Source: Alphaproteobacteria bacterium (GTDB lineage Bacteria; Pseudomonadota; Alphaproteobacteria; GCA-2731375). From it: 64,000 bases of DNA. The stretch covers positions 10,741 through 74,740 of the forward strand of contig JAPYUH010000001.1 in the NCBI GenBank assembly GCA_029936195.1, read 5' to 3'. The position numbers and the translations under genes are program-made. A model generated the notes under the pieces. It was not told where the DNA came from. It was given only the letters and a program-made list of their open reading frames with translations, and ran no database searches. Positions 14,516-62,639 of this stretch are shown here, in pieces (position 1 is the stretch's first letter; each line of letters opens with the position of its first letter).

Positions 14516-14620
14516 GCCCAATCCTCAAAATTTAGATGGCCCCGATCTTTCGGCACCATATAGGTAAGTATGAATGACCTAATTTGCAACATTCTTACCG
14601 CCCCGCCTCACCAATTAGCC

Positions 14621-24900: not shown

Positions 24901-26519
24901 GTGCCGAACTCCTTGGTACCCTTGATATTCTGGTTGTGGCAGATGGACAGCGCGATGGCGATGGAGGTGCGGGTATCGCGCGGATCGATCATGCCGTCGT
25001 CGGATACGCGGGATGTGGCAAAGAGGCCTTTCGAGCGCTCCTCCGCCCAATGTTCCACCACGGCGGCGCGTTTCCCATCGGCCTCCTCGTCGAATTCGAT
25101 GCTGCGCCGTTCCGAGGCCCTGCGCTGTACGATGGACATCACGCCGGCCATCTGTTTCGGCCCCATGACGGCGATCTTGGCGGTGGGCCAGATGAAGGTG
25201 AAGCGCGTGCCATAGGCCCGCCCGCTCATGCCGTAATTGCCGGCGCCATAGGATGCCCCGACGATGATGGAGATGTGCGGCACGGTGGAGTTGGCCACCG
25301 CGTTGATCATTTTCGAGCCGTTCTTGGTAATGCCGCCCTGCTCGAAATCCGTGCCGACGATGTAGCCGGTGATGTTGTGCAGAAACAGCAGGGGCACGTC
25401 GATCTGATTACATAGCTGGATAAACTGCGCCGCCTTTTCCGAAGATTCCGACATCAGCGGCCCATTGTTGGCGACAATACCCATGGGATAGCCATGCACC
25501 GAGGCCCAGCCGGTGACCAGCGTGGGGCCGTACAGCGGCTTGAACTCCTCAAAGCGGGAGCCGTCCACGACCCGGGCGATGACGTCGCGGATATCAAAGG
25601 GCACGCGCAGGTCTTCGTTGACGATACCCAGCAGCTCTTCTTCGTCGAACAGCGGTGCATCGTTGGGCAGGCTGGGGCCGGGGCCCTGTTTGCGCCAGTT
25701 CAGGTGCGAAACCACTTCGCGGCAAATGCGGATGCCGTCGATCTCGTCCTCCGCCAGGTAATCCCCCAGGCCGGAGGTGCGGGTATGCATCTCGGCCCCG
25801 CCCAGGCTTTCCTCGTCCGCGTCTTCGCCCGTGGCCATTTTCACCAGGGGCGGGCCGCCCAAAAAGACCTTGGACTGTTTTTTGATGAAGATGTTGTAGT
25901 CGCTCATGCCCGGCTGATAGGCCCCGCCGGCGGTGGAGGCGCCGAACACCACGGAAATGGTCGGGATGCGCATTTTCGACAATTCGGTGATCTCGTAAAA
26001 CAACCGTCCGGATTCGGCGAAATGGCCGCCTTCCCGCCGGATCGCCGCCTCCGGATCGCCGCCGTCTTCGCCCCGAAGATCAGCGCCGGCGGATTCGACG
26101 AATTGCACATAGGGCAGGCGGTTCACCCGGGCGATTTCCAGGCCCCGCATCAGCTTCTTGGCGTTGAACTGGTTAAAGGCACCGGCCCGGACCGAGGGGT
26201 CATGGCCCAGGATCAGGCATTCCGTGCCCTCGATTACACCCAGGCCAACAACGAAGCCAGAGCCGACGTTGAAGTTGGAGCGCCAGGCCGCCAGCGGGCT
26301 GATTTCCATGAACGGGCTGTCGCGGTCCAGCACCAGGGCAATACGCTCCCGGATCGGCATCTTGTCACGGGCGGCCAGGCGGGCCATGGCCTCTTCGCCG
26401 CCGCCCTGGGCGACCTCTTCGTGCAGCTCGTCCAAAATGGTGAGCATTTCCAGCATCTTGTCGCGGTTGTCCCGGTATTCGTCCGAGCGCACGTCAAGGG
26501 TCGAGTCCAAAATGGGCAT
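24888..26519 (-). CDS. Acyl-CoA carboxylase carboxyltransferase (beta) subunit
   Basis: About 540-aa carboxyl-transferase typical of MCCase/GCCase beta subunits. Overlaps the alpha-subunit start. Confidence 0.85.
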   Translation of the reverse strand: MPILDSTLDVRSDEYRDNRDKMLEMLTILDELHEEVAQGGGEEAMARLAARDKMPIRERIALVLDRDSPFMEISPLAAWRSNFNVGSGFVVGLGVIEGTECLILGHDPSVRAGAFNQFNAKKLMRGLEIARVNRLPYVQFVESAGADLRGEDGGDPEAAIRREGGHFAESGRLFYEITELSKMRIPTISVVFGASTAGGAYQPGMSDYNIFIKKQSKVFLGGPPLVKMATGEDADEESLGGAEMHTRTSGLGDYLAEDEIDGIRICREVVSHLNWRKQGPGPSLPNDAPLFDEEELLGIVNEDLRVPFDIRDVIARVVDGSRFEEFKPLYGPTLVTGWASVHGYPMGIVANNGPLMSESSEKAAQFIQLCNQIDVPLLFLHNITGYIVGTDFEQGGITKNGSKMINAVANSTVPHISIIVGASYGAGNYGMSGRAYGTRFTFIWPTAKIAVMGPKQMAGVMSIVQRRASERRSIEFDEEADGKRAAVVEHWAEERSKGLFATSRVSDDGMIDPRDTRTSIAIALSICHNQNIKGTKEFGTWRM

Positions 26520-26550
26520 GAAGATACTCCAGAACTATGAACTGATTAAG

Positions 26551-27636
26551 TCAGCGGCTGAACGCGTCGCCGTCCCGCCAGGGAGACAGCTGGCCGGCGT
26601 AAACTTCCGGCCCCTTGCGGAAATGCGCGGCTTCCTCCAGGGTTTCGACGAACGGCATGTTGGCGGGGTAGAGCCTGTCGCCCCTGGGCCGGGCGCCGGA
26701 TTTCGAGACGTGACCCCACAGGGGATGGCCGACAACTTCCTCGGCGATGGCGGCGGCCTCGATCAATTTGTCCAGATCATAGCCGGTTTCGATGCCCATT
26801 TCGTGACACAGATTGACGAAATCCTCGGTCGGCACGTGACCCGCCGCCCGGCCATTGCCGCAATAGGGGCAACCGCCCATGCCGCCGATGGAGGTGTCAA
26901 ATTCACGCACGCCCAGTTGCAGGGCTTCATAATAGCTGGTCAGGGTGGAGCCGCGGCTGTCATGCAGGTGCATGTGAAAATCGGTGATCTCGGGATATTT
27001 GTCCTTGATCGCCGTCAAGGTCTCGCGCACCTCGTGGGGCATATTCCAGCCCATGGCGTCCAGGAATGACAATCTGTTCACTTTGATCCCGGCGCCGTGC
27101 CATTTCCCAATCATCAGGTCGAGCAATTCCATGCGCTGGGCCAGAGTGAATGGTCCTTCAAAGTTGGAGCCGAAGGGATTGCCCAGGCCCACGGCGCCGA
27201 ATTCGGCGTCCGCCTCCTTGGCGGCGGCGACGGCGGCATCCAGCCCGGCGATCTGTTCGGCCTGGGTGCGATTGTAGTTGCGCCGCGCGAAGGTGTCGCA
27301 CAGTTCCACGTTGGTGCCGAATTTCCGCCCCCGCACATCGATTTTTGGATAGTACTGATCGGCCCGCTCGAAACCGCGCTTGTTGAAGATTGCGGCGGTG
27401 TACTTGATGCCCGGCTTGGGTACGAAACGCTCGGCAATCTCGTCAATGCAGGCCATCGACGGCGTCCATTTGGGTGAGGCGAAGGAGCCGATGGAGATAA
27501 CCTTGGCGCCGGTCTCGCCCAAGGCGTCCAGCAGGCGCAGCTTTTCATCCACGGAAATATCGGCGCTTTCGATCTGCAGACCTTCGCGCATGGTGTCGTC
27601 GGTGATCATCACGGATTTCGGCAGCATGGACATCAT
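26551..27636 (-). CDS. HMGL-like (pyruvate carboxyltransferase-domain) lyase, hydroxymethylglutaryl-CoA lyase family; unusually long C-terminus
   Basis: N-terminal DDTMREGLQIE motif resembles the HMGL RDGLQ motif. A TIM-barrel metal-binding H..H pattern is present. At 361 aa it is longer than canonical HMG-CoA lyase. Confidence 0.65.
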   Translation of the reverse strand: MMSMLPKSVMITDDTMREGLQIESADISVDEKLRLLDALGETGAKVISIGSFASPKWTPSMACIDEIAERFVPKPGIKYTAAIFNKRGFERADQYYPKIDVRGRKFGTNVELCDTFARRNYNRTQAEQIAGLDAAVAAAKEADAEFGAVGLGNPFGSNFEGPFTLAQRMELLDLMIGKWHGAGIKVNRLSFLDAMGWNMPHEVRETLTAIKDKYPEITDFHMHLHDSRGSTLTSYYEALQLGVREFDTSIGGMGGCPYCGNGRAAGHVPTEDFVNLCHEMGIETGYDLDKLIEAAAIAEEVVGHPLWGHVSKSGARPRGDRLYPANMPFVETLEEAAHFRKGPEVYAGQLSPWRDGDAFSR

Positions 27637-27685: not shown

Positions 27686-29188
27686 TTATTCAAGGTAGTC
27701 CGCCACGGCCTGGCATTGCGCGGGACCGAGGTGCAGGCCGCATTTGCTGCGCCGCCACAAAATGTCCTCCGCCGTCACCGCCCATTCGTTGGCCACCATA
27801 TAGTCGATTTCCCGCGCCGTCAGGCCGGCTCCGAAGTCATAACCCAGATCGGCGGCGGTTCGGGCCTTGCCAAGGATTTCCTTGGCCAAGGTGCCGTGCC
27901 GCGCTACCAATTGCCGGATCAGGTTGGCGGAGATATTCGGATAGTCCGCGGGTAGGTCGGACAAGTCGGACAGGCCGCCTTCGCCACCTGGCAAGGGTGA
28001 CGTGGCCGTCCAGTTCGGACTCAAATTGGGAAAATATGCGCTAAGGCGATCCATCGCGGCTTCCGCCAGACGACGATATGTGGTGATTTTGCCGCCGTAT
28101 ATGGAGAGTAAGGGCGCGCCGCCGCCATCCAATTCCAGAACATAATCTCGTGTGACCGCCGAAGGGTCTTCATCACCATCACCGAACAGGGGTCGGACGC
28201 CGGCGAAAGACCAGCAGACCTGTTCGGGCATGACGCGGCGGTCAAAATAGGCGTTCACCGCGTGACACAGATATTCGATTTCCGCCGTGGAAATTTGCAC
28301 CGTGCCCGGGTCGCCATCGAAGGGGACGTCGGTGGTTCCGATCAGGGAATAGGCGTCCTGGTAAGGCATGACGAATATCACCCTGCCGTCGGTGTGTTGC
28401 AGAATATAAGCATGCGCGCCGCCGAACAGCCGCGGGACGATAATGTGGCTGCCCTTGATCAGGACCGTCCGTCCCTTATGGCTTGATCGGGAGATGACCC
28501 CGAGGCGCGGCAGCACCTCTTCCACCCAGGGTCCGGCGGCATTGACCAGCACCTTGGCCTGAATTTCAATTCCCCGGCCATTGCCGTCAAGCAAGCTGGC
28601 ATGCCAGATGCCATTCTCCCATCGGGCGGAAACCAGCTCCGTGCGGGTCATGATGCGGGCGCCGCGATGGGCCGCATCCAGAGCATTCAGCACCACTAGG
28701 CGGGCATCGTCGACCCAGCAGTCGTAATAGGCAAACCCCTTGCGCATGTGGCCGCGCAGCGGTTCGCCAACGGCCTCCCGGCGCAGGTTCAGGGACGAGG
28801 AATTGGGCAGCGAGGGATGCGGGCCCAGATGGTCGTAAATGAACAGGCCCAGGCGCACCATCCAGGCCGGCCGGATGGTGTTGACCAGGGGCAGGACAAA
28901 GCGCAACGGCCTGACCAGATGCGGCGCGATGTGGAGCAGGACTTCACGTTCCGCCAAGGCTTCGCGCACCAGGCGGAATTCGAAATACTCCAGATAACGC
29001 AAGCCGCCGTGGATCAGCTTGCTGCTGGCCGAGGACGTGGCGCCCGCCAGATCGCCCCTTTCACACAAGGCGACGCGCAGACCCCGCCCGGCGGCGTCCC
29101 TGGCCATGCCGGCGCCGTTGATGCCGCCGCCGACGATCAGCAGGTCATGCAGCAGGTCCTTCGGCGGGTCGGGGATCTGGGTTGCCAT
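27686..29188 (-). CDS. FAD-dependent glycerol-3-phosphate dehydrogenase-like oxidoreductase (GlpD family)
   Basis: DLLIVGGGINGAGMARDAAGRGL followed by SSASSKLIHGGLRYLE. ATG at 29188 is preferred to the upstream TTG (29266). Confidence 0.8.
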   Translation of the reverse strand: MATQIPDPPKDLLHDLLIVGGGINGAGMARDAAGRGLRVALCERGDLAGATSSASSKLIHGGLRYLEYFEFRLVREALAEREVLLHIAPHLVRPLRFVLPLVNTIRPAWMVRLGLFIYDHLGPHPSLPNSSSLNLRREAVGEPLRGHMRKGFAYYDCWVDDARLVVLNALDAAHRGARIMTRTELVSARWENGIWHASLLDGNGRGIEIQAKVLVNAAGPWVEEVLPRLGVISRSSHKGRTVLIKGSHIIVPRLFGGAHAYILQHTDGRVIFVMPYQDAYSLIGTTDVPFDGDPGTVQISTAEIEYLCHAVNAYFDRRVMPEQVCWSFAGVRPLFGDGDEDPSAVTRDYVLELDGGGAPLLSIYGGKITTYRRLAEAAMDRLSAYFPNLSPNWTATSPLPGGEGGLSDLSDLPADYPNISANLIRQLVARHGTLAKEILGKARTAADLGYDFGAGLTAREIDYMVANEWAVTAEDILWRRSKCGLHLGPAQCQAVADYLE

Positions 29189-29314
29189 GGCCCCAGGGTG
29201 CCACCTATTGGCCGCGCCGTCGCCCCACTTGAGACTCTTTGACAAAGTGGTGGTAGGCTTGGCCAACCGCGTTCGCGGCGTAATTCAGCGAAACATTGTA
29301 GAGAGGAAATCCCC

Positions 29315-29737
29315 TTGGAACCCGAATTGCTACGGCCCCTGCCGAAACCCATGACCCCCGAAGCCAAACCATATTGGGATGGTCTGCGGGAAGGAAAATT
29401 GATGTTGCCTGAATGCAACGATTGCGGCAAAGCGTTCTTTTATCCGCGCATCGCCTGCCCAAATTGCCATTCCCGCAACGTCGGCTGGGTCCAGGCCAGC
29501 GGCAAGGGCAAGCTGTATTCCTTTCAGATCGCCTACCGTGCCCTGAACCCGGCCTTCAAGATCCCGCCGCCTTATGTGTTGGCCATGGTCGAGTTGGAGG
29601 AGGGCCCGCGCCTGATGTCAAACCTGATTAATGTCGAGGCCGACCCGGATGTGATCAAGTGCGACATGGCGGTCGAGGTCGTGTTCGAAAAACAGACCGA
29701 CGAGGTCACCATCCCCCTGTTTCAGCCCGCATCGTGA
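29315..29737 (+). CDS. Zn-ribbon/OB-fold protein (DUF35 family), partner of SCP-x-type thiolases
   Basis: CxxC...CxxC rubredoxin-like zinc ribbon (CNDCG...CPNCHS) followed by an OB fold. Confidence 0.75.
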   Translation: MEPELLRPLPKPMTPEAKPYWDGLREGKLMLPECNDCGKAFFYPRIACPNCHSRNVGWVQASGKGKLYSFQIAYRALNPAFKIPPPYVLAMVELEEGPRLMSNLINVEADPDVIKCDMAVEVVFEKQTDEVTIPLFQPAS

Positions 29738-29785
29738 AACGCGTGGCCCGAACCAACGTGACAATTGAATTTATGGAAGCGTAGA

Positions 29786-30931
29786 ATGAAAGACTTATCC
29801 AACTCCGTCGCCATTGTGGGCGTCGATGAATCCGATGAAATCGGCAAGTTGCCGGACGTCAGCCTGACCAGCCTGCATCTGCAGGCGGTCCACAATGCCG
29901 TGGCCGACGCCGGTCTGAAAATTTCCGATATTGATGGCGTCTTCACGGCCGGGCAGCATTCCCCGGCCATGTTGGGCGAGGCCCTGGGCATTACCCCGCG
30001 TTATGTGGACGGCACCTCCGTGGGCGGTTGCTCTTTTATCATGATGGTCGGCCACGCCGTGGCGGCGCTGCATCATGGGCTGTGTGACGTGGCGGTGATC
30101 TCGCACGGTGAAAGCGGTCGGTCGGGCACCGGCGTCACCCGTGCCCGCGACACCTCGTTGAGCGGGCAATATGAAATGCCCTATGGCTTTGGCGGCGCGC
30201 CGACATACTTCGGCATGATCACCAACCGGCATATGCATGAATACGGCACCACGTTGGAAGATTGGGCCCGGGTCGCCGTCTCCACCCGCGCATGGGCTGG
30301 CTTGAACCCCAAGGCCATGTTCCGCGATCCCATCACGGTCGAGGACGTGCTGAATTCACCGAAACTGTTCTATCCCTTCAATTTGCTGAACATCTGCCTG
30401 GTCACCGACGCGGGCGGCGCCGTTGTTTTGACCCGGGCCGAACGGGCCAAGGACTGCGCCAAAAAGCCCGTCTATGTGCGTGGCGCGGGCGAGGGCACGG
30501 AGCATACCCTGGTCACCAATATGACAGACATGCCCATGAGCAAGGCAACCGCCATTTCCGGCAACAAGGCGTTCGAGATGGCCGGTGTCACGCACGGCGA
30601 TTTCGATCACATCATGCTGTACGACGCATTTTCCTCCGGCCCGCCGATGATGCTGGAATCCCTTGGCTTTGCCGAGCCCGGTGAAGGTGTGCGGTTCTTC
30701 GACGAGGGCCGCTCGGACCCGGGCGGCTCCCTGCCCATCAACACCAACGGCGGCGGGCTGTCCTACACCCATTCGGGTATGTACGGCATCTTCCCCATTA
30801 TCGAGGCGGTGCGCCAACAGCGCGGCGAATGCGGTGACCGTCAGGTGCCAGGGGTCAAATGCTCGTTGGTCAACGGCATGGGCGGCATGCTCTCGGCGGC
30901 GGGCACCATTGTGCTCTCACACGAGACCTAG
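29786..30931 (+). CDS. Thiolase-like protein (SCP-x/non-specific lipid-transfer thiolase family)
   Basis: Thiolase-fold N-terminus (VAIVGVDESDEIG) and C-terminal active-site region (GGGLSYTHSGMYG...NGMGGM). Adjacent to the DUF35 gene. Confidence 0.8.
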   Translation: MKDLSNSVAIVGVDESDEIGKLPDVSLTSLHLQAVHNAVADAGLKISDIDGVFTAGQHSPAMLGEALGITPRYVDGTSVGGCSFIMMVGHAVAALHHGLCDVAVISHGESGRSGTGVTRARDTSLSGQYEMPYGFGGAPTYFGMITNRHMHEYGTTLEDWARVAVSTRAWAGLNPKAMFRDPITVEDVLNSPKLFYPFNLLNICLVTDAGGAVVLTRAERAKDCAKKPVYVRGAGEGTEHTLVTNMTDMPMSKATAISGNKAFEMAGVTHGDFDHIMLYDAFSSGPPMMLESLGFAEPGEGVRFFDEGRSDPGGSLPINTNGGGLSYTHSGMYGIFPIIEAVRQQRGECGDRQVPGVKCSLVNGMGGMLSAAGTIVLSHET

Positions 30932-30953
30932 GGGAGCGGAGGAGAATCATCTG

Positions 30954-32015
30954 ATGGATTTCGGGGTCAGTTGCGCCAAGATTGACGAAGTCGGCTTTGT
31001 CCGGCATGCGGAAAATCTGGGCTATGACTTTTGCTGGGTAACCGACAGCCAAATGATCCGCTCCAACCCCTGGGCCGTTCTGGCGCTCATTGCGCAGCAG
31101 ACCCAGACCATTCGCATCGGCACCGGCGTCGCCGTGCCGGGCCTGCGCCTGGCGCCGGTGGCGGCGAACGGCATCGCCACCACCGCCCGCCTGGCGCCGG
31201 GGCGCACCTTCATGGGGATCGGCACCGGCAACACGGCTATGCGGACCATGGGGCAGCGGCCGACCACCATCAAGGCCTTCGGCGAATATATTCGTGTCGT
31301 CCGCGCCTTGCTGGATGGCGAGGAGGTCGACTACACCCTGAACGGCGTCACCCAGCCCATTCGATTTCAAAATACCGAACTGCGCTATCTGGATCTGGAT
31401 CACCACATTCCCATCCACGTGGCGGGTTTCGGACCCAAGGCGCAGGCCCTGGCGGGGGAATTGGGCGACGGCCTGATCACCGGCATCCCGCGCGGCGGCG
31501 CCATTCCCTGGGCGCTCGGCAATGTGAAATCCGGCGCCGACCGGGCCGGGCGCGATCTGGATGGTTTTTTCACAACGGCCCTGGTCAACATGTTGCTGTT
31601 GATGCCCGGTGAAACCTTGGAATCTGAACGGGTGGTCGCTGAATGCGGTTCTTCCATCATGGCGAACGTGCATTTCATGGTGGATTGGGTGAAGGAAACG
31701 GGGGGCGATCCGCCGGACTTCATCAAGCCGATCTGGAATGACTACATGGCGTTCCACAACGCCCGCGACGCCGAGACCCAGCATCAAAAACTGCATGAAA
31801 GCCACTACAGCTATCTCGACCCGGAGGAGGCGCGCTTTATCACGCCGGAAGTGATCCGCAATTTCTGCATCGCCGGACAGCCGGAAGAAATCGTTGATCA
31901 GTTGCTGGACCTGGAACGCCAGGGCCTGAACGCCATCAACTTCATCGCGCCCCTGGAGCAGCAATACCGCATGGCCGAGGACTTCGCGGACAAGGTCATA
32001 TCCCGCATGAAATAA
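30954..32015 (+). CDS. LLM-class (luciferase-like) flavin-dependent oxidoreductase
   Basis: Bacterial luciferase-like TIM-barrel signature. ATG at 30954 has a GGAGGAGAA SD. The track's upstream extension is rejected. Confidence 0.8.
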   Translation: MDFGVSCAKIDEVGFVRHAENLGYDFCWVTDSQMIRSNPWAVLALIAQQTQTIRIGTGVAVPGLRLAPVAANGIATTARLAPGRTFMGIGTGNTAMRTMGQRPTTIKAFGEYIRVVRALLDGEEVDYTLNGVTQPIRFQNTELRYLDLDHHIPIHVAGFGPKAQALAGELGDGLITGIPRGGAIPWALGNVKSGADRAGRDLDGFFTTALVNMLLLMPGETLESERVVAECGSSIMANVHFMVDWVKETGGDPPDFIKPIWNDYMAFHNARDAETQHQKLHESHYSYLDPEEARFITPEVIRNFCIAGQPEEIVDQLLDLERQGLNAINFIAPLEQQYRMAEDFADKVISRMK

Positions 32016-32027
32016 GGAGACCGCGCA

Positions 32028-32423
32028 ATGGCATTGACATTGGAAGAGGCCAACCGCATCGCCCAAGGCGCCCTCGCCAAGGCGGCGGCATTGAATATCA
32101 AGATCAATGTCGCGGTCTGCGACGTGGGCGGACGACTGCTGGTTTTCCAGCGCATGGACGGGGCCATGTGGGCCGGGGTTTACGGCAGTCAGGGCAAGGC
32201 CGTCGCCTCCGCGTCTTTTGGACGGCCCAGTGGTGATATGACGGAACGGGCCGGACATCCGACCTTCCGGGCCATCGTGGCCCATTCCGGCGGCGCCATG
32301 ATCATGGGCCAGGGCGCCGTGCCGGTGATCCGCGACGGCGAGGTGCTGGGCGCCTGCGGCGTTGGCGGCGGCACGGGCCAGGAGGACGAGGATTGCGCCC
32401 AGGCGGGCGTTGATCTGCTATAG
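32028..32423 (+). CDS. GlcG/HbpS-like heme-binding protein (DUF336)
   Basis: 131 aa with the DUF336 pattern (AVCDVGGRLL...GGAMIMGQGAVPV...GACGVGGG). Confidence 0.7.
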   Translation: MALTLEEANRIAQGALAKAAALNIKINVAVCDVGGRLLVFQRMDGAMWAGVYGSQGKAVASASFGRPSGDMTERAGHPTFRAIVAHSGGAMIMGQGAVPVIRDGEVLGACGVGGGTGQEDEDCAQAGVDLL

Positions 32424-32435
32424 GGGCGACGGCAT

Positions 32436-33221
32436 ATGGCCATTGTCAAGAATGCCGTCATGGAGCGACTGGGCGCCGGCAAGATCGCGGCCAGTTTTAA
32501 TGTCAGCCGCCTGCGCACCGTGGAAATTCCCCAAATCGCCAAGGCCTGCGGTTTTCATTGGATCTTCATCGATCTAGAGCATTCCACCATGGACCTGGAC
32601 ATGGCCGGCCAAATCTGTGCCGCCGCCTTGCCCACGGCCGTTACGCCCATCGTTCGCGTGCCCGAGGGGGATGTGAACCGGGCCGCCCGCATCCTGGACG
32701 CCGGCGCCCAGGGCGTTATCTTCCCCCATGTGCAAAACGCGGTTGAGGCGCGCGCTTTCACCGCTGCCTGCCGCTTTCCCCCCATCGGTACGCGCTCGCT
32801 GATCTATGGCGGACCGCAGCTTGAATATGAAAACCTGCCCCCCGGCGAGGTCATGGCCGGGATCAACGGCGAAACTCTTGTGGTCATGATGATTGAAACG
32901 CCCGAGGCCGTGGCCAACGCCGCTGAAATTGCGGCCGTGGACGGCGTCGATCTGCTGTTGGTGGGCGGCTCGGACCTGTCGGCGACCATGGGTATTGCCG
33001 GGCAGTTCAGCCATCCCGATTTCCTTGCCGCCATCGACACGGTGATCGCGGCCGCCAAGGGCGCGGGCAAATGGCCTGGTCTGGGCGGGATCTATGACGA
33101 GGCGATCCTGCCGGACTTTGCCGATCGCGGCATGCGCTTTTTCCTGGGCGGGGCGGATATGTCGTTCATCCTGGCGGGCGGCAAATCCCGCGGCGCCTTT
33201 TTCAATGGGTTGTCGGTTTGA
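32436..33221 (+). CDS. HpcH/HpaI-family class II (2-keto-3-deoxy-acid/pyruvate) aldolase
   Basis: Family pattern G..W...IDLEH...R.E (CGFHWIFIDLEHS...VRVPEG), comparable to RhmA/HpaI. Confidence 0.8.
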   Translation: MAIVKNAVMERLGAGKIAASFNVSRLRTVEIPQIAKACGFHWIFIDLEHSTMDLDMAGQICAAALPTAVTPIVRVPEGDVNRAARILDAGAQGVIFPHVQNAVEARAFTAACRFPPIGTRSLIYGGPQLEYENLPPGEVMAGINGETLVVMMIETPEAVANAAEIAAVDGVDLLLVGGSDLSATMGIAGQFSHPDFLAAIDTVIAAAKGAGKWPGLGGIYDEAILPDFADRGMRFFLGGADMSFILAGGKSRGAFFNGLSV

Positions 33222-33328
33222 CGTCAAACCCATTCCCAAACAGCCTGGTTTTGGCTACCATTTAGATCCTACCTCAATCTGGCCGCTTGGATTATCGCGG
33301 CCCCCGCCACGCATCAACAGGACCGATC

Positions 33329-35608
33329 ATGCCCGCAATTCTGGATGGGATTACCATCCTCGACCTCAGTACAGGCCCCGCCGCCGCCCTTGCCACCATG
33401 TTGTTGGGCGATCAAGGCGCGCGCGTCATCCGCCTTGTCGAGCCCGACGCGCCTGTTTTTCGGGACGGCGGCTTTGTCATTTGGGATCGCGGCAAGGAAC
33501 GCATGGCACTGGATATTGAGCAAGACAATGGCCAATTCCATGCCTTGGTCGCGGGCGCCGATGTTTTGGTGGAGGATTTCGCGCCAAGCTCGGCCCGCCA
33601 GGAATTGGTCAAAGCTGAAACGTTGGCCCGGATCAATTCCCGCTTGACCGCCTGTTCCCTGACCGCCTATGGCAAGCGCGGCGCGCTGAAGGATGAACCG
33701 CCGATCGAGGATCTGGTGCTGGCCCGCATGGGTGTTTTGGGCGGCATGCCGGGCTTCCGCCCGCCGCCCGTGCATGTGGTCCATCCCCTGCCCACCGTGG
33801 GCGCCGCCATACTGGCCTGCCTGGGCATTGCCGCCGCCTTGCTGGCCCGCGAAGGGACCGGGCGCGGACGCACGGTGGAGACTTCGTTGATGGCCGGCGC
33901 CTTGTTGTATCACCCCAAGGTCATTGGCGAGAATTTGGACGCGCATGTCTTTCAGACCCACCCATCTGGCAGCGCGCCTTTTTACAGTGTCTATGAATGC
34001 GGCGACGGCAACTGGGTGCAATTGGGTTGCGTGCATGTGCGCTTCATCGCCATCGCCGCCAACCTCATGGGCATCGGCGATCTGGTGGCCGAGCCGCGCT
34101 TCAATGGCGGCGGCGGAGGCATGACGGCCGGGGACGAGGCGGAATTGCGCGCCGTTCTTACCCGCGTGGTTGCCACGAAGCCCCTGGCGGAATGGGCCGA
34201 GGCGTTCGAGGCGGCGGATGTGCCCTTCGCGCCCGTGCGCCCGACCGAGGACGGCATGACCGATCCTCAGGTCATCCATAACGACATGGTGGTCACCCTG
34301 GATGATCCCGAACGTGGGCCCGTGACGCAAATGGGCGTGCCGCTTGGGTTTAGCCAAACGCCCGGCGCCGTTCAGGGGCCGAGGGCGGGCGGGAATTCCG
34401 AGATTACCCTTGATGCCATTCAGGCGGGCACTGCCGTCGCGGGCGCGATGGATCCGCCGCCCCTGGCCGGCATCCGCATTCTGGAAATCACCAACCTGAT
34501 CGCCGGCCCCACGGGCGGGCGCCTGCTGGCCGATCTGGGCGCCGATGTGATCAAGCTGGAACCGCACACGGGCGATCTGTCCCGGCCCATCGGGCGGTCA
34601 TATTTCTATAATCTGAATTTCAACAAACGCTCGGTCTCCGTCGATACCAGCACGGACAAGGGGCGGGAAGTGGTGCAGCGCATCGCCGCCCGGTCGGACG
34701 CCCTGATGGCGAACCTGCGTCCCGGCGCCACGGCCCGCATGGGTATCGGGCCGGAGAACCATCCCCAACTGATCGAAACCCACCTGACCGGCTATGGCCC
34801 CACCGGGCCTTACGCCAAACGCCCCGGCATTGACCCCCTGGCCCAGGCCCTCATGGGCATGTCCCGGGCCCAGGGCGGCTTGGACAATCCACCCGTGTTC
34901 CCGGCCCAACTGGCGCCCACCGATTTCACCACGGGCGCCATGGGTGCCTTTGGCACCGTATTGGCAATCTATGCCCGGACCCGTCACGGCATTGTGCAAC
35001 GGGTTGACAGCAACCTGCTGAATGGCGCGGTGCTGCTGTCGTCGGCCTGGTTTTCGGCCTATGAAGGGCGGCCCGTCAGGCCCTTGGCGGACACGGACCA
35101 ATATGGCCTGAACCCCTACCATCGGCTCTATCGTCTGAATGACGGCTGGATCTATGTCACCGCCGGGAATGCGGAACACCGCAATGCCATCTGTCAGGTC
35201 TCGGGCGTTGCCGCCGGGGGCAGCGCGGAAGGCCGCCACCCCAACCTATCCCCGCTGGCCCAATCCCTCGCCGAGGGGTTCGCCGGCCGGGGATTGGCCG
35301 ATACCCTTGCCGCGTTGCGAAAGGCCGGCGTGCCGGTGGCCGAGGCGCAAAAGGGTGGCAGCGAGCTGTTCCTCGACCACCCGCATACCCAGGAGAACGA
35401 TATGGTGGCGACCCTGAGCCACCCCATTGCGGGCCGGTTGCGGGTGGCCCATCGCTACATTCAATTCGGCAATACCGAACCGGCCAATCACCTTCCCACG
35501 CCGCTGTTGGGCGAGCAGACCGACGAGGCCCTGCGCGAGGCCGGATATAACGAAGATGAGATCCGCGCCCTGCATGATGACGGCATTGTCCTGACCGAAA
35601 CGGCGTAA
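33329..35608 (+). CDS. Tandem-fused family III CoA-transferase (two CaiB/BaiF domains in one 759-aa polypeptide)
   Basis: The N-terminal half (ILDLSTGPAAALATMLLGDQGARVIRLVEP) and the C-terminal half (ILEITNLIAGPTGGRLLADLGADVIKLEPH) each carry the family III CoA-transferase N-terminal signature. ATG at 33329. Confidence 0.8.
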   Translation: MPAILDGITILDLSTGPAAALATMLLGDQGARVIRLVEPDAPVFRDGGFVIWDRGKERMALDIEQDNGQFHALVAGADVLVEDFAPSSARQELVKAETLARINSRLTACSLTAYGKRGALKDEPPIEDLVLARMGVLGGMPGFRPPPVHVVHPLPTVGAAILACLGIAAALLAREGTGRGRTVETSLMAGALLYHPKVIGENLDAHVFQTHPSGSAPFYSVYECGDGNWVQLGCVHVRFIAIAANLMGIGDLVAEPRFNGGGGGMTAGDEAELRAVLTRVVATKPLAEWAEAFEAADVPFAPVRPTEDGMTDPQVIHNDMVVTLDDPERGPVTQMGVPLGFSQTPGAVQGPRAGGNSEITLDAIQAGTAVAGAMDPPPLAGIRILEITNLIAGPTGGRLLADLGADVIKLEPHTGDLSRPIGRSYFYNLNFNKRSVSVDTSTDKGREVVQRIAARSDALMANLRPGATARMGIGPENHPQLIETHLTGYGPTGPYAKRPGIDPLAQALMGMSRAQGGLDNPPVFPAQLAPTDFTTGAMGAFGTVLAIYARTRHGIVQRVDSNLLNGAVLLSSAWFSAYEGRPVRPLADTDQYGLNPYHRLYRLNDGWIYVTAGNAEHRNAICQVSGVAAGGSAEGRHPNLSPLAQSLAEGFAGRGLADTLAALRKAGVPVAEAQKGGSELFLDHPHTQENDMVATLSHPIAGRLRVAHRYIQFGNTEPANHLPTPLLGEQTDEALREAGYNEDEIRALHDDGIVLTETA

Positions 35609-35767
35609 ACGAAATCTCCAGCGGCCGCCTTTGTTGCGGTCGCTTCCAGGGTCATAGCGGAAATGGCCTCCGCGCCGTTTGATGTTCGAGATGCGCGAGG
35701 AGCGAGCATGGAGCGCCCGCAACAATCACGCATGGATTAGCTGAACACCTGCCGGTACACTCTCGCC

Positions 35768-36541
35768 ATGTCCGAAAGAACAAAACGCAGGCTAACGACT
35801 ATCGTGGCCGCAGACATCGCCGGTTTTTCACGCTTGGTTGGGAACGACGAAGAAGCCACTCTTGCGGCCCAACGTGGCCATCGTACCAAACTAATTGAAC
35901 CACTGCTTGCCGAACACCAAGGCCGGATCGCCAATACAGCCGATGATAGCTTCCTGTTTGAATTTCAGAGCGCGGTAGAGGCGGTGCGTTGTTCGATTGC
36001 CGTGCAGGATGGTATGGCCGAGAGAAACCTTGGCGTCGCCTCTGATCGACGCATAGAGTACCGCATTGGCGTCAACGTTGGTGACGTGGTGCCCGATGGC
36101 GATGACCTATTGGGCGACGGCGTCAACATTGCGGCGCGTCTCGAAAGCCTTTGTTCGCCAGGCGGCATTATTCTGTCCGATGACGCCTATAGGCAGGTGC
36201 GTGACCGCCTTGAGATTACTTGGGAGGATGGCGGCGAGCACAAGGTCAAAAACATCTTACGGCCAGTGCAGGTTTGGCGGTGGTCAACAGTAAATTCACA
36301 AAAAACCGCCGTAGTAGAAATCACGGATCATGATGCGCGACCGCTACACGATAAGCCTTCTATTGCCGTCCTGCCATTCGACAACATGTCCGGCGACCCG
36401 GAGCAAGAATATTTCTCAGACGGTATTGCCGAAGATATTATCACTGACCTTTCCAGATTTTCCATGGCAAGTAAGCCTGCATCAATTTCGAGTTGCCGAA
36501 TGTCCCAAATGGGTCGAGAGCAGCTAGTAGGAAATCACTGA
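35768..36541 (+). CDS. Class III adenylate/guanylate cyclase catalytic-domain protein, C-terminally truncated relative to its family (possible gene remnant)
   Basis: CHD cyclase domain (TIVAADIAGFSRL...GDGVNIAARLES). The ORF stops 18 aa after the conserved linker motif (SIAVLPFDNMSGDPEQEYFSDGIAEDIITDLSRF) that in homologs precedes a long TPR region. GC3 is lower than in neighbouring genes. Confidence 0.6.
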   Translation: MSERTKRRLTTIVAADIAGFSRLVGNDEEATLAAQRGHRTKLIEPLLAEHQGRIANTADDSFLFEFQSAVEAVRCSIAVQDGMAERNLGVASDRRIEYRIGVNVGDVVPDGDDLLGDGVNIAARLESLCSPGGIILSDDAYRQVRDRLEITWEDGGEHKVKNILRPVQVWRWSTVNSQKTAVVEITDHDARPLHDKPSIAVLPFDNMSGDPEQEYFSDGIAEDIITDLSRFSMASKPASISSCRMSQMGREQLVGNH

Positions 36542-36600
36542 TATCATGCTCGAGGCTGGGGGCATGGCCGACATCGACCATCACTGCTCTGGCGGCTTGC

Positions 36601-48194: not shown

Positions 48195-48234
48195 GCGCGG
48201 AACTTAGAACATTTCAAGATTGATTGAAATCGCC

Positions 48235-48289
48235 GAGCCACCCACGCCCCCACCCGGCCAACCATTCATGATGATTACGTGGGTGGCTC
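48235..48289. repeat. 12-bp perfect inverted repeat (GAGCCACCCACG-N31-CGTGGGTGGCTC)
   Basis: Seen directly in sequence, in the intergenic space between the membrane-transporter stop and the SDR start. Confidence 0.5.
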
Positions 48290-48316
48290 GGATCAAGCTT
48301 GAAAAGCCTTTGCGGA

Positions 48317-62045: not shown

Positions 62046-62058
62046 GCAGGGTTGCGGC

Positions 62059-62472: not shown

Positions 62473-62639
62473 CCGCCTCCCCCTGTTTGCCAACTTTGCA
62501 ACTGTAGAGCCATCAACGGCCTTTGCGATGCCCGCGCATTGAATCCAGAAAACCTGGATCATTCGCGTTGGAGAAGTTTTGGGTATTGCCGGTAGTATCC
62601 ACGCACGCGCGTCAAACACCGCGTTACTGGGTTCTCTAA

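What the first reader, a model, noticed from the sequence alone, without database searches (positions are those of the whole stretch)
29315..35608. Candidate uncharacterised CoA-ester catabolic module: DUF35 Zn-ribbon + SCP-x thiolase-like protein, LLM oxidoreductase, GlcG-like protein, HpcH/HpaI aldolase and a fused double CoA-transferase
Known DUF35/thiolase-like pairs carry out C-C cleavage of unusual acyl-CoAs (BbsAB in benzylsuccinate beta-oxidation; Ltp2/DUF35 retro-aldolase in steroid side-chain degradation). Those pathways use heterodimeric family III CoA-transferases (BbsEF). Here the CoA-transferase is a single fused two-domain protein. Together with a flavin-dependent LLM oxidoreductase, a pyruvate-type class II aldolase and a GlcG-like protein, all co-oriented with gaps of at most 65 bp from 29786 onward, this looks like a compact pathway for an unidentified carboxylic acid or CoA ester. 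The first step would be CoA activation, the second retro-aldol or thiolytic cleavage.
Basis: partly seen in the sequence, partly recalled or inferred. Interest (0 to 1): 0.65.

Follow-up and report, generated by a model that had tools for sequence, protein, structure and literature searches.

The report
Accreted CoA-transferase / thiolase-fold lyase operon
The six genes are real and tightly packed, but they are a lineage-specific assembly built around a very widespread, extremely conserved two-gene unit (a zinc-ribbon protein plus a thiolase-shaped enzyme that lacks the thiolase cysteine), so this is an uncharacterised variant of known CoA-dependent carbon-carbon cleavage systems rather than a conserved new pathway.

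Summary
All six genes and their domains are confirmed. The CoA-transferase starts at ATG 33329, so its upstream gap is 107 bp, not 65 bp.

Comparative genomics shows accretion, not one conserved module:
- The DUF35 + thiolase-fold pair is autonomous. It is 77-99% identical in more than 550 marine and soil contigs, usually without the other window genes.
- LLM + GlcG lie between the pair and the CoA-transferase only in the window's clade.
- The HpcH aldolase occurs only in the window's own species.
- The CoA-transferase is often solitary and carries its own conserved upstream DNA motif.

Two links do recur independently:
- The pair sits next to a double class III CoA-transferase, either fused or split.
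- The pair is directly followed by an LLM, of two unrelated types.

The "thiolase" has Gly/Ser at the nucleophile position, and YDAF where thiolases have HDCF/HDAF. These are features of the Sal/Ltp2 aldolases. The fused transferase keeps one catalytic Asp, in the C-terminal half. Tandem fusion itself is not new (DddD and many plasmid homologues).

Best reading: CoA transfer, then retro-aldol cleavage, then handling of the aldehyde product. The substrate is unknown. I found no characterised orthologous cluster. Interest is moderate.

The parts
29315..29737 (+). DUF35 protein (140 aa): rubredoxin-like C4 zinc ribbon plus OB fold. Predicted partner subunit of the thiolase-fold enzyme.
   Evidence: Pfam zf-ChsH2 2.3e-15 and OB_ChsH2_C 4.7e-21. 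A DUF35 gene lies directly upstream of the thiolase-fold gene in every related locus that has upstream sequence. BbsA equivalog scores 43 bits against a cutoff of 250.
29786..30931 (+). Thiolase-fold protein (381 aa), SCP2-thiolase/Sal/Ltp2 branch, without a canonical nucleophilic Cys. Motifs: G80-G81-C82, Y279-D-A-F282, H329. Predicted C-C lyase (retro-aldolase).
   Evidence: - Pfam Thiolase_C_1 1.2e-55. NCBIfam PRK06158 scores 409.9 bits against a cutoff of 421.
- PDB sequence hits: 4u4e 7e-121, CtSal 9myr 2e-52, TcLtp2 6ok1 3e-44, BbsB 7pxp_C 2e-33.
- Motif conservation in 102 representatives.
- 77-99% identical in more than 550 metagenome stretches.
30954..32015 (+). LLM-class (luciferase-like) flavin/deazaflavin oxidoreductase (353 aa). 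Cofactor undetermined.
   Evidence: - Pfam Bac_luciferase 1.8e-48.
- Best NCBIfam hit TIGR03842 scores 144 bits against a cutoff of 295.
- Nearest solved relatives are F420-dependent: Mer 2e-25, hydroxymycolate dehydrogenase, FGD, Adf.
- It lies between the pair and the CoA-transferase only in the window's clade.
- Orthologues at 70-83% identity are solitary elsewhere.
32028..32423 (+). GlcG/HbpS-like DUF336 protein (131 aa).
   Evidence: Pfam HbpS-like 3e-31. PDB hits: NahX 3e-16 and the formaldehyde sensor EfgA 2e-15. Present only in the window's clade.
32436..33221 (+). HpcH/HpaI-family class II (metal-dependent) pyruvate aldolase (261 aa). A recent insertion found only in the window's species.
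   Evidence: - Pfam HpcH_HpaI 2.9e-31. The HpaI equivalog scores 130 bits against a cutoff of 369.
- In the alignment to HpaI 4b5s, His45, Arg70, Glu149 and Asp175 are all conserved.
- Present in the window's species (L001, L054). Absent from L002-L005 and L037, and not found in any other fetched locus compared.
33229..33263 (+). Conserved non-coding block CCATTCC-N13-TTTTGGCTACCATT, ending 65 nt before the CoA-transferase ATG. Candidate promoter or operator belonging to the CoA-transferase gene.
   Evidence: Invariant in alignment A1 of 8 loci. GGCTACCATT occurs upstream of the CoA-transferase in L001-L004, L037, L054 and L062, and also in L006 and L035, where the gene is solitary. No Rfam family matches.
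33329..35608 (+). Tandem (fused) class III CoA-transferase, 759 aa. The N-terminal half lacks the catalytic Asp (H152-P-L-P-T156). The C-terminal half keeps it (T531-D532).
   Evidence: - Pfam CoA_transf_3 x2, 8.5e-145.
- Alignments of each half to MCR and SUGCT.
- D532 is invariant, and no Asp occurs in the N-half, in 118 family members.
- AF2 model: pLDDT 86, pTM 0.92. Each solved class III chain covers about half of it.
22894..27636 (-). Divergent neighbour operon: MCC-alpha-like biotin carboxylase (22894-24900), carboxyltransferase (24888-26519) and HMGL-like lyase (26551-27636). Conserved next to the cluster within the window's clade only. A functional link is unproven.
   Evidence: Pfam and NCBIfam hits. 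Synteny in L001-L005, L037 and L060. Absent from the DUF35-Thl-CoAT2 locus L059 and from other loci that carry the pair.
27686..29188 (-). glpD (aerobic glycerol-3-phosphate dehydrogenase), a variable insert between the two divergent operons. Probably unrelated.
   Evidence: NCBIfam PRK12266 scores 700 bits against a cutoff of 360. Present in the window and L001-L003. Absent from L004, L005, L037 and L060.

Best explanation
This is a lineage-specific operon built by accretion around a ubiquitous two-gene unit. That unit is a DUF35 zinc-ribbon/OB protein plus a thiolase-fold enzyme that has lost the thiolase nucleophile.

The most likely function is ATP-independent catabolism of a small carboxylic acid. 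Every step below is inferred.
1. The tandem class III CoA-transferase has a single active site, at Asp532 in the C-terminal half. The N-terminal half is a catalytically dead scaffold. It moves CoA from a donor acyl-CoA onto the acid. The donor is plausibly the acetyl-CoA or succinyl-CoA released later, as in BbsEF/BbsAB.
2. The resulting, or derived, 3-hydroxyacyl-CoA is cleaved by the DUF35/thiolase-fold complex through a retro-aldol reaction. Tyr279 of the YDAF motif acts as base. His329 is the candidate acid. Products are acetyl-CoA and an aldehyde or ketone.
3. The LLM oxidoreductase and the DUF336 protein act on, or buffer, the carbonyl product.
4. In this species only, the class II pyruvate aldolase also handles that carbonyl product.

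Shown by the data: gene content, the active-site motifs, the single catalytic Asp, and the pattern of recurrence and accretion.

Inferred: the chemistry, the order of steps, co-transcription and the substrate. The substrate is unknown.
For: Tight same-strand packing with gaps of 48, 22, 12 and 12 bp.

The pair is linked to a double class III CoA-transferase in several separate arrangements:
- DUF35-Thl-LLM-GlcG-(HpcH)-CoAT2: window, L001-L005, L037, L060.
- DUF35-Thl-CoAT2: L007, L009, L012, L059.
- These two sets form separate clades of the CoA-transferase tree, with solitary-gene clades between them.
- CoAT-CoAT-x-DUF35-Thl with split genes in marine L072. There subunit 1 has Gln and subunit 2 has Asp at the catalytic position.
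- Sphingomonas sp. MM-1 plasmid pISP0: fused CoAT, ALDH, SDR, DUF35, then a thiolase that is 46% identical with the same GGCSF/YDAF/SYTHSGMYG motifs.
- Sulfitobacter plasmid: split pair next to OB-fold + thiolase.

An LLM lies directly downstream of the pair in 9 other marine loci. That LLM has no BLASTP similarity to the window's LLM and is followed by TRAP DctQ/DctM carboxylate-transporter genes.

Aldolase-like active site:
- The canonical Cys position is Ser78 in the HMMER alignment, or Gly81 by spacing and by correspondence with Sal Gly89.
- The motif is YDAF, against HDCF/HDAF in thiolases.
- Tyr279 is kept in 87 of 102 representatives and Gly81 in 93 of 102. Position 82 is Ala 46, Ser 18, Cys 11.
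- The Tyr of YDxF is the catalytic base in Sal and Ltp2 (PMC12329534).

Aldehyde theme:
- Aldehyde dehydrogenases lie next to the homologous Rhodococcus and Sphingomonas clusters.
- DUF336 proteins recur in aldehyde-producing pathways, and EfgA binds formaldehyde (PMC8153426).
- The window's HpcH keeps all HpaI catalytic residues.
Against: - In about 80 of 84 thiolase-anchored loci the pair has none of the other window genes nearby. In Entotheonella it sits among housekeeping genes.
- CoA-transferase orthologues at 57-76% identity, and LLM orthologues at 70-83%, are mostly solitary in unrelated contexts.
- HpcH is unique to one species, and GlcG to one clade.
- The cluster has no enoyl-CoA hydratase, acyl-CoA dehydrogenase or aldehyde dehydrogenase. 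The characterised Sal, Ltp2 and Bbs systems have these.
- The second catalytic residue of the known aldolases is absent: Cys304 of Sal and Tyr344 of Ltp2 correspond to Ala281 and His329 here. The chemistry is therefore extrapolated.
- A conserved motif in the 107-bp gap suggests the CoA-transferase may be transcribed on its own.
- There are no expression or biochemical data.
Confidence: 0.35

Rival explanations
1. There is no single pathway. The cluster is a chance or neutral juxtaposition of individually mobile catabolic units: the DUF35/Thl pair, an LLM, a DUF336 protein, an aldolase and a CoA-transferase. Each works in its own context. The genome belongs to a group rich in LLM and CaiB-type paralogues.
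For: - Each unit occurs alone in most related genomes.
- HpcH is found only in the window's species.
- The CoA-transferase has its own conserved upstream motif, also present where the gene is solitary.
- Transposases flank the DUF35-Thl-CoAT2 locus L059.
- Large paralogous expansions of LLM-type (FMN/F420-dependent monooxygenase) and CaiB/BaiF-type CoA-transferase genes are documented in dark-ocean SAR202 bacteria (PMC5395668).
Against: - The pair sits next to a double class III CoA-transferase, fused or split, upstream or downstream, in at least four arrangements and in distant taxa.
- Non-orthologous LLMs sit directly downstream of the pair in two lineages.
- Gaps of 12-48 bp are typical of co-transcribed genes.
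- The five-gene block is retained in the window's clade while the downstream flank and glpD vary.
Confidence: 0.3
2. It is a Bbs-like beta-oxidation end module. The thiolase-fold protein would be a genuine thiolase, with Cys82 serving as the acyl-accepting nucleophile. It would cleave a 3-oxoacyl-CoA, and its acyl-CoA product would be recycled by the CoA-transferase.
For: - The protein is homologous to BbsB (2e-33) and to archaeal-type thiolases. His329 is retained at the GHP position.
- Cys82 lies one residue after the canonical nucleophile position. It is conserved within the closest subfamily, including the Sphingomonas homologue.
- The general logic of heteromeric or fused class III CoA-transferase plus DUF35/thiolase matches BbsEF + BbsAB.
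Against: - Cys82 is replaced by Ser or Ala in relatives at 45-51% identity, including 4u4e. Across 102 representatives this position is Ala 46, Ser 18, Cys 11.
- The motif is YDAF, not the HDAF of BbsB and 7yvy.
- BbsA and BbsB equivalog scores are far below cutoff: 43 against 250, and 118 against 750.
- The cluster has no dehydrogenase to make a 3-oxoacyl-CoA, unless the LLM does this.
Confidence: 0.12
3. The cluster is the terminal part of leucine or isoprenoid catabolism, working together with the divergent MCC-like carboxylase and HMGL-like lyase. Acetoacetate released by the lyase would be activated by the CoA-transferase. The resulting acetoacetyl-CoA would be split by the DUF35/thiolase pair, as done by the archaeal DUF35-associated acetoacetyl-CoA thiolase.
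For: - The BC-CT-HMGL operon lies next to the cluster in every member of the window's clade.
- The alpha subunit has the BT_MCC_alpha domain.
- The thiolase-fold protein hits the Methanothermococcus acetyl-CoA acetyltransferase model at 1.5e-51.
Against: - The protein has no thiolase nucleophile.
- The locus has no isovaleryl-CoA dehydrogenase and no methylglutaconyl-CoA hydratase.
- The HMGL-like protein is below the family cutoff, 184 bits against 246.
- The adjacency is absent outside the window's clade.
- This reading does not explain the LLM, GlcG or HpcH genes.
Confidence: 0.08
4. The tandem CoA-transferase is a DddD-like transferase/lyase. It would both load and eliminate a leaving group from an onium or substituted propionate, giving 3-hydroxypropionyl-CoA or a similar product. 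The neighbouring enzymes would then process that product.
For: - It shares the tandem CaiB-CaiB architecture of DddD (PMC7174347; PMC5395668).
- It comes from a marine alphaproteobacterial setting.
Against: - Orthology to DddD could not be tested, because no DddD sequence was available to the tools.
- None of the loci examined has a BCCT-type transporter, a 3-hydroxypropionate dehydrogenase or a malonate-semialdehyde dehydrogenase beside the gene.
- The protein is 759 aa, against about 820 aa for DddD.
- Tandem class III transferases occur in many unrelated catabolic clusters.
Confidence: 0.04

Closest known systems
Steroid side-chain aldolases CtSal-ShyDUF35 (PDB 9myr) and TcLtp2-ChsH2DUF35 (PDB 6ok1)
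   Same: They share the thiolase fold of the SCP2 branch and a DUF35 zinc-ribbon/OB partner. None has a nucleophilic Cys. All have Tyr at the first position of the YDxF motif, which is the catalytic base in Sal and Ltp2. After the uncharacterised 4u4e, these are the best solved sequence relatives (2e-52 and 3e-44).
   Different: - The second catalytic residue differs: Ala281/His329 here, Cys304/Gln352 in Sal, His296/Tyr344 in Ltp2.
- The DUF35 protein is free-standing, not fused to a MaoC hydratase.
- There is no hydratase, aldehyde dehydrogenase or steroid gene nearby.
- The pair is 77-99% conserved across phyla and usually stands alone.
Benzylsuccinate beta-oxidation: BbsEF CoA-transferase + BbsAB thiolase
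   Same: A two-subunit class III CoA-transferase is combined with a DUF35/thiolase-fold C-C cleaving enzyme. The acyl-CoA product can be recycled as the CoA donor. There is structural similarity to BbsEF (9fn0, Foldseek 8e-20) and sequence similarity to BbsB (2e-33).
   Different: - The transferase here is one polypeptide with one catalytic Asp.
- BbsB has HDAF, and in the published description (own knowledge) a catalytic Cys. The window protein has YDAF and no canonical Cys.
- The BbsA and BbsB equivalog models are far below cutoff.
- There are no bbsCDGH-type dehydrogenase or hydratase genes.
DddD (DMSP CoA-transferase/lyase)
   Same: It is the characterised example of a single polypeptide with two tandem CaiB-type class III CoA-transferase domains (PMC7174347).
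   Different: Orthology was not tested. The size differs (759 aa against about 820 aa). No ddd-type transporter or 3-hydroxypropionate-pathway neighbours are present. The window family has its own conserved upstream motif and variable contexts.
Uncharacterised cluster on Sphingomonas sp. MM-1 plasmid pISP0 (also Sphingobium sp. MI1205): P450-ferredoxin-ADH-MaoC-MaoC-fused CoA-transferase-ALDH-SDR-DUF35-thiolase
   Same: The fused class III CoA-transferase has the same dead-N/live-C pattern (29% identity). The DUF35 + thiolase-fold protein is 46% identical and has the same GGCSF/YDAF/SYTHSGMYG motifs. It is the closest analogue in a cultured organism.
   Different: It has the hydratase, SDR and aldehyde dehydrogenase genes that the window cluster lacks. 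It has no LLM, DUF336 or HpcH gene. It is itself uncharacterised.
HpaI/HpcH, YfaU and GarL class II pyruvate aldolases
   Same: Same Pfam family. His45, Arg70, Glu149 and Asp175 of HpaI are all conserved.
   Different: It scores far below every equivalog cutoff (130 bits against 369 for HpaI). It has no hpa- or gar-type neighbours. It is present in only one species of the clade.
DUF336 proteins: GlcG, EfgA, NahX, PduO C-terminal domain
   Same: Same fold family (Pfam 3e-31; NahX 3e-16, EfgA 2e-15). Members recur in pathways that generate aldehydes, and EfgA binds formaldehyde (PMC8153426).
   Different: No equivalog assignment (48 bits against a cutoff of 246). Ligand and role are unknown. The formaldehyde-binding residues were not examined.

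Membership tests
True thiolases (SCP2-type / DUF35-associated, e.g. BbsB, archaeal acetoacetyl-CoA thiolase) | Nucleophilic Cys at the N-terminus of helix N-alpha-3 | tested here: not met
   HMMER aligns the Cys of 7yvy (aaCasg) with Ser78. Spacing to the conserved G-x-x-D, and correspondence with Sal Gly89, place it at Gly81. Gly81 is kept in 93 of 102 representatives. The neighbouring Cys82 position is Ala 46, Ser 18, Cys 11.
True thiolases (SCP2-type / DUF35-associated) | His at the first position of the HDCF/HDAF motif | tested here: not met
   The window has Y279-D-A-F. BbsB and 7yvy have HDAF, and SCP2 thiolases have HDCF. Tyr occupies this position in 87 of 102 representatives.
True thiolases (SCP2-type / DUF35-associated) | Catalytic His of the GHP loop | tested here: met
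   His329 in SYTHSG aligns with the His of 7yvy and BbsB. His occupies this position in 76 of 102 representatives.
Thiolase-fold retro-aldolases (Sal / Ltp2) | Tyr of the YDxF/Y motif (catalytic base) | tested here: met
   Tyr279 aligns with Sal Tyr302 and Ltp2 Tyr294.
Thiolase-fold retro-aldolases (Sal / Ltp2) | Catalytic acid: Cys304 of YDCY (Sal) or Tyr344 (Ltp2) | tested here: not met
   The window has Ala281 at the Cys304 position and His329 at the Tyr344/Gln352 position. His could substitute as the acid, but this is untested.
Thiolase-fold retro-aldolases (Sal / Ltp2) | Obligate DUF35 partner | tested here: met
   A DUF35 gene lies directly upstream in the window and in all related loci that have upstream sequence. 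Physical complex formation was not tested.
Thiolase-fold retro-aldolases (Sal / Ltp2) | Retro-aldol activity on a 3-hydroxyacyl-CoA, with an adjacent MaoC hydratase supplying the substrate | not testable with these tools
   The activity needs biochemistry. The window cluster has no hydratase gene. A MaoC pair is present in the Sphingomonas analogue.
BbsAB / BbsEF system | NCBIfam equivalog scores for BbsA and BbsB | tested here: not met
   BbsA scores 43.3 bits against a cutoff of 250. BbsB scores 118.5 bits against 750.
Class III CoA-transferase (active enzyme) | Catalytic Asp (Frc Asp169 equivalent) in the domain | tested here: met
   - C-terminal half: A-P-T-D532 aligns with the SUGCT motif AMTD and is invariant in 118 homologues.
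- N-terminal half: H-P-L-P-T/S at the position of MCR Asp156, with no Asp in any homologue.
- So one of the two domains qualifies.
DddD | Two tandem CaiB-type domains in one polypeptide | tested here: met
   Two CoA_transf_3 stretches. The single-chain model has pTM 0.92. The DddD architecture is described in PMC7174347.
DddD | Orthology to DddD, and a ddd-type neighbourhood (BCCT transporter, 3-hydroxypropionate and malonate-semialdehyde dehydrogenases) | tested here: inconclusive
   None of 6 examined contexts has this neighbourhood. Sequence orthology could not be tested because no DddD sequence was available.
HpaI/HpcH class II pyruvate aldolase | Catalytic His45 and Arg70, and metal ligands Glu149 and Asp175 | tested here: met
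   All four are conserved in the phmmer alignment to 4b5s and 2v5j.
HpaI/HpcH class II pyruvate aldolase | Equivalog-level score for a named enzyme (HpaI, GarL, RhmA) | tested here: not met
   Scores of 130, 112/108 and 92 bits against cutoffs of 369, 393/407 and 441.
F420-dependent LLM oxidoreductases (TIGR03842, Mer) | Score above the family cutoff, and use of F420 | tested here: inconclusive
   The best hit, TIGR03842, scores 144 bits against a cutoff of 295. Mer scores 124 bits against 276. All nearest solved relatives are F420 enzymes. The cofactor cannot be read from sequence here, and F420 biosynthesis genes of the genome were not available.
EfgA-type formaldehyde sensor (DUF336) | Membership of the EfgA clade, and formaldehyde-binding residues | not tested
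   Only family-level similarity was established (EfgA 2e-15, NahX 3e-16).

The most novel reading that the evidence does not exclude
The ultra-conserved DUF35/thiolase-fold pair is a third catalytic solution among thiolase-fold aldolases: a Tyr279/His329 dyad with no Cys. It would act on a small, ubiquitous 3-hydroxyacyl-CoA. Together with a half-dead tandem CoA-transferase, it would form an ATP-free CoA-recycling lyase cycle.

In the most extreme version the substrate is 3-hydroxypropionyl-CoA, cleaved to acetyl-CoA plus formaldehyde. That would fit three neighbours:
- a DUF336 protein related to the formaldehyde sensor EfgA;
- an LLM whose nearest solved relatives are methylene-H4MPT reductases;
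- a class II pyruvate aldolase able to capture small aldehydes.
Probability: 0.1. Interest if true: 0.8.

Novelty: new variant of a known kind. Interest (0 to 1): 0.45.

Why it matters
The DUF35/thiolase-fold pair found here is one of the most conserved uncharacterised enzyme pairs I have seen in these data. It is 77-99% identical across marine Alphaproteobacteria, Entotheonella, Nitrospinota and soil metagenomes. It lacks the residue that defines thiolases. Assigning its reaction would annotate thousands of genes now labelled 'acetyl-CoA acetyltransferase'.

The window operon offers three functional handles: a single-site tandem CoA-transferase, an LLM, and aldehyde-related proteins. So do its relatives, namely the version with a TRAP transporter and the Sphingomonas plasmid version with P450, hydratase and aldehyde dehydrogenase genes.

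It also bears on how deep-ocean heterotrophs activate organic acids without ATP.

Tried and rejected
- Leucine / HMG-CoA reading with the divergent MCC/HMGL operon. Rejected as the main explanation: the protein has no thiolase Cys, the locus has no hydratase or isovaleryl-CoA dehydrogenase, and the adjacency is limited to one clade.
- DddD orthology. No DddD sequence could be obtained. Plasmid tblastn hits are annotated only as 'CoA transferase'. The Sinorhizobium hit that looked promising lies in a lactonase/aconitase-type hydratase/ETF/CitE-like lyase cluster, not a ddd cluster.
- Sigma-70 promoter and terminator scans of 28800-36800 gave counts no higher than shuffled sequence.
- Rfam (gathering threshold) on the whole window found nothing. 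Tandem Repeats Finder found nothing.
- The conserved motif does not fit a sigma-54 GG-N10-GC spacing in the window (manual reading).
- One literature search on fused class III CoA-transferases returned only irrelevant papers. Searches for NahX and for the BbsEF structure found no usable paper.
- I considered predicting the thiolase-fold structure. I dropped it because the tools give no residue-level superposition.
- The first alignment put the canonical Cys at Ser78. I re-examined this by spacing and by Sal Gly89, and concluded that Gly81 is more likely. Neither residue is Cys.

Full report
**1. Observation**

ORF listing, Pfam and NCBIfam scans confirm six co-oriented + strand genes:
- DUF35, 29315-29737
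- SCP2-type thiolase-fold protein, 29786-30931
- LLM oxidoreductase, 30954-32015
- GlcG/HbpS-like DUF336 protein, 32028-32423
- HpcH/HpaI aldolase, 32436-33221
- a protein with two class III CoA-transferase domains

Gene calls on a public contig that carries the identical CoA-transferase agree.

The CoA-transferase starts at ATG 33329 and is 759 aa. The start is preceded by a conserved AGGA and is shared by all homologues. The gaps are therefore 48, 22, 12, 12 and 107 bp.

Downstream lie a short cyclase-domain ORF, an ABC transporter, L31, HSP20, metF and metH. Upstream and divergent lie glpD, an HMGL-like lyase, a carboxyltransferase and an MCC-alpha-like biotin carboxylase, and beyond them a TPR-repeat gene and pntAB.

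The closest relatives are all marine, mostly deep-water, Alphaproteobacteria/Rhodospirillaceae MAGs.

**2. Is it one conserved module?**

*Anchoring on the CoA-transferase (48 loci from species-representative genomes)*
- The full six-gene arrangement occurs only in L001, which is 93-99% identical and so the same species.
- L002-L005 and L037 have DUF35-Thl-LLM-GlcG-CoAT2 without HpcH.
- L007, L009 and L012 have DUF35-Thl-CoAT2.
- The remaining orthologues, at 57-76% identity, have none of these neighbours.
- Annotated contexts confirm this:
  - P0043 lies next to Amidohydro_2 genes and transposases.
  - P0009 lies between a cupin and a DUF2189 gene.
  - P0024 has DUF35-Thl-CoAT2 flanked by transposases.
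  - P0007 has the five-gene version with different downstream genes.
- On a neighbour-joining tree of the CoA-transferase, the pair-linked loci form two clades. Clades in which the gene is solitary separate them.

*Anchoring on the thiolase-fold protein*
- It is extraordinarily conserved. The top 120 database clusters are 81-97% identical. They include Candidatus Entotheonella and Nitrospinota.
- More than 550 metagenome stretches match. The best 80 are 77-99% identical and come from marine and soil samples.
- A DUF35 gene lies directly upstream wherever upstream sequence exists.
- The window's LLM and GlcG occur only in two close relatives (L061 also shares the HMGL-like and glpD genes, L062 the LLM and GlcG). 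HpcH occurs in none.
- A class III CoA-transferase of any type occurs in 4 of 84 loci.
- In Entotheonella the pair lies among housekeeping genes: NAD synthase, LepA and an NA37 nucleoid-associated-family gene.

*The LLM*
- Orthologues at 70-83% identity are solitary in three unrelated contexts.

*Conclusion*
The cluster grew by accretion around an autonomous DUF35/Thl unit. HpcH is the most recent addition.

**3. Evidence that some links are nevertheless functional**

The pair and a double class III CoA-transferase meet in several different arrangements:
- fused and downstream, in the window's clade and in the L007/L059 clade;
- split into two genes and upstream, in marine L072: CitMHS-HAD-CoAT-CoAT-x-DUF35-Thl, with the thiolase-fold protein 85% identical;
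- around distant homologues (27-32% identity) of the fused protein on plasmids:
  - Sphingomonas sp. MM-1 pISP0: P450-ferredoxin-ADH-MaoC-MaoC-fused CoAT-ALDH-SDR-DUF35-thiolase;
  - Rhodococcus sp. BH4;
  - Sulfitobacter, with split genes.

Four other plasmid contexts lack the pair, but all are beta-oxidation-like catabolic islands.

The pISP0 thiolase-fold protein is 46% identical to the window's and shares its active-site motifs.

Separately, an LLM lies directly downstream of the pair in nine other marine loci. That LLM is a different subfamily, with no BLASTP similarity to the window's (E = 2.4). It is followed by TRAP DctQ/DctM genes, that is, a carboxylate uptake system.

Non-orthologous LLMs recruited to the same position, and double CoA-transferases recruited in different orientations, argue for functional coupling of pair + CoA-transferase + LLM. 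I found no such support for GlcG or HpcH.

**4. The thiolase-fold protein is probably not a thiolase**

The best solved relatives are, in order:

| PDB entry | Protein | E-value |
|---|---|---|
| 4u4e | uncharacterised 'thiolase' | 7e-121 |
| 9myr | bile-acid aldolase CtSal | 2e-52 |
| 6ok1 | steroid aldolase TcLtp2 | 3e-44 |
| 7yvy | thiolase | 6e-39 |
| 7pxp_C | BbsB | 2e-33 |

Nucleophile position:
- In the residue-level alignments, the canonical nucleophile Cys of 7yvy aligns with Ser78.
- Counting from the conserved G-x-x-D, and using the correspondence with Sal Gly89 (chain index 113, tag offset 24), places it at Gly81.
- Either way the residue is not Cys.
- The neighbouring Cys82 becomes Ser in 4u4e. 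Across 102 full-length cluster representatives this position is Ala 46, Ser 18, Cys 11.

Motif:
- The HDCF/HDAF motif of thiolases is Y279-D-A-F here. Tyr is kept in 87 of 102 representatives.
- PMC12329534 shows that this Tyr is the catalytic base of Sal (YDCY) and Ltp2 (YDHF). The acid is Cys304 in Sal and Tyr344 in Ltp2.
- The window protein has Ala and His329 at those two positions. If it is an aldolase, it uses a third arrangement.

It belongs to a very large clade: 10,128 representatives at E <= 1e-3 and 910 at E <= 1e-30.

**5. The tandem CoA-transferase has one active site**

- The C-terminal half aligns its A-P-T-D532 with the catalytic-Asp motif of SUGCT.
- The N-terminal half is most similar to alpha-methylacyl-CoA racemase. 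It has H-P-L-P-T where MCR has Asp156, and Ile where MCR has His126.
- Across 118 full-length family members D532 is invariant, and the N-half never has Asp.
- The same dead-N/live-C pattern holds in the Rhodococcus and Sphingomonas fused homologues. In the split pair of L072, subunit 1 has Gln and subunit 2 has Asp. Both Sulfitobacter subunits keep Asp.
- An AlphaFold2 model built on 53 sequences is confident as one body: pLDDT 86, pTM 0.92. Each solved class III chain (SUGCT, Frc, BbsEF, CaiB, MCR) covers about half of it, with TM 0.43 by query length and about 0.8 by target length.
- Tandem fusion as such is known. DddD has two CaiB domains (PMC7174347; see also PMC5395668). Forty-eight plasmid records hold full-length two-domain homologues, fused or as adjacent split genes.

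**6. The other genes**

- HpcH keeps His45, Arg70, Glu149 and Asp175 of HpaI. It is therefore a competent class II pyruvate aldolase, but it matches no named equivalog.
- The LLM's nearest solved relatives are all F420 enzymes: Mer, hydroxymycolate dehydrogenase, FGD and Adf. All NCBIfam scores are below cutoff, and the cofactor is open.
- The DUF336 protein resembles NahX and the formaldehyde sensor EfgA. DUF336 proteins recur in aldehyde-generating pathways (PMC8153426).
- Together with the aldehyde dehydrogenases in the Rhodococcus and Sphingomonas analogues, this gives an aldehyde theme. The theme fits a retro-aldol product but is only circumstantial.

**7. Transcription**

The 107-bp gap before the CoA-transferase contains CCATTCC-N13-TTTTGGCTACCATT at 33229-33263.
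- The block is invariant across eight loci.
- It is also present upstream of solitary CoA-transferase genes in L006 and L035.
- It is absent from L005, where the gap is 50 bp.

The CoA-transferase therefore probably carries its own promoter or operator. It may be an independent, or additionally regulated, unit. Consensus promoter and terminator scans and Rfam were uninformative.

**8. Verdict**

The core logic, CoA-transferase plus DUF35/thiolase-fold C-C lyase with an LLM, is backed by independent recurrences. The cleavage is more likely retro-aldol than thiolytic.
- The cluster is not a conserved compact pathway, the fused transferase is not a new architecture, and the aldolase and DUF336 genes are lineage-specific passengers or add-ons.
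- I found no characterised orthologous cluster in the literature searches or annotated collections.
- I rate it a new variant of a known kind, of moderate interest.
- The most valuable element is the ultra-conserved pair that lacks the thiolase cysteine, whose reaction is unknown.

Noticed in passing
window 33229-33263: Conserved non-coding block CCATTCC-N13-TTTTGGCTACCATT, containing a TGG-N3-CCA mini-palindrome, ending 65 nt before the CoA-transferase ATG. It is also present upstream of solitary orthologues (L006, L035). It is a candidate promoter or operator that travels with the gene.
   Followed up: partly
window 29786-30931; loci L055-L140: The thiolase-fold protein is 77-99% identical across marine Alphaproteobacteria, Candidatus Entotheonella, Nitrospinota and many soil metagenome contigs. 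This is unusually high conservation across phyla. It implies strong constraint, recent horizontal spread, or both. Databases label it 'acetyl-CoA acetyltransferase' although it lacks the nucleophilic Cys.
   Followed up: partly
L068 3403-6613; L074 7564-12097: A different marine lineage has DUF35-Thl followed by an unrelated LLM (343 aa, TIGR03619-like) and TRAP transporter DctQ/DctM genes. This suggests an uptake-linked operon for a carboxylic acid.
   Followed up: partly
window 22894-27636 (- strand): MCC-alpha-like biotin carboxylase, carboxyltransferase and a 360-aa HMGL-like lyase form a divergent operon. The lyase is below the HMG-CoA lyase cutoff. The operon has no isovaleryl-CoA dehydrogenase and no hydratase. 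It is conserved next to the cluster in the window's clade only.
   Followed up: partly
window 27686-29188 (- strand): glpD lies between the two divergent operons in the window and in L001-L003. It is absent from L004, L005, L037 and L060. It is a variable insertion at the same junction.
   Followed up: partly
window 35768-36541: A short ORF (257 aa) has an adenylate/guanylate cyclase domain followed by a SIAVLPFDNMSGD-type segment. Cyclase proteins near related loci are 707-735 aa, with CHASE2 or TPR parts (L060, L144). This one may be truncated.
   Followed up: no
L152 5276-14604 (Sinorhizobium mexicanum plasmid pEmeITTGR7c): Another tandem class III CoA-transferase (736 aa) lies in an unannotated cluster. 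Its neighbours are an SMP-30/gluconolactonase-like protein, aconitase-family large and small subunits, ETF alpha/beta and a CitE-like HpcH-family lyase.
   Followed up: no
L072 3813-6277: A split class III CoA-transferase pair upstream of the DUF35/Thl pair. The first subunit has Gln and the second has Asp at the catalytic position. This is the same dead-then-live order as in the fused proteins, and is consistent with fusion of a heterodimer.
   Followed up: partly
window 48001-50000 and 62001-64000: Composition outliers. AT skew is 0.284 at 48-50 kb. G+C drops to 0.527, with GC skew 0.114, in the last 2 kb. No tandem repeats or Rfam families were found anywhere in the window.
   Followed up: no
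window 11027-14521 (- strand): A 1164-aa protein with TPP_enzyme_C, POR and DUF6537 domains. From my own knowledge of the family, this looks like a fused 2-oxoacid (indolepyruvate-type):ferredoxin oxidoreductase. It lies next to an SDR gene and near a sigma-54-dependent response regulator.
   Followed up: no
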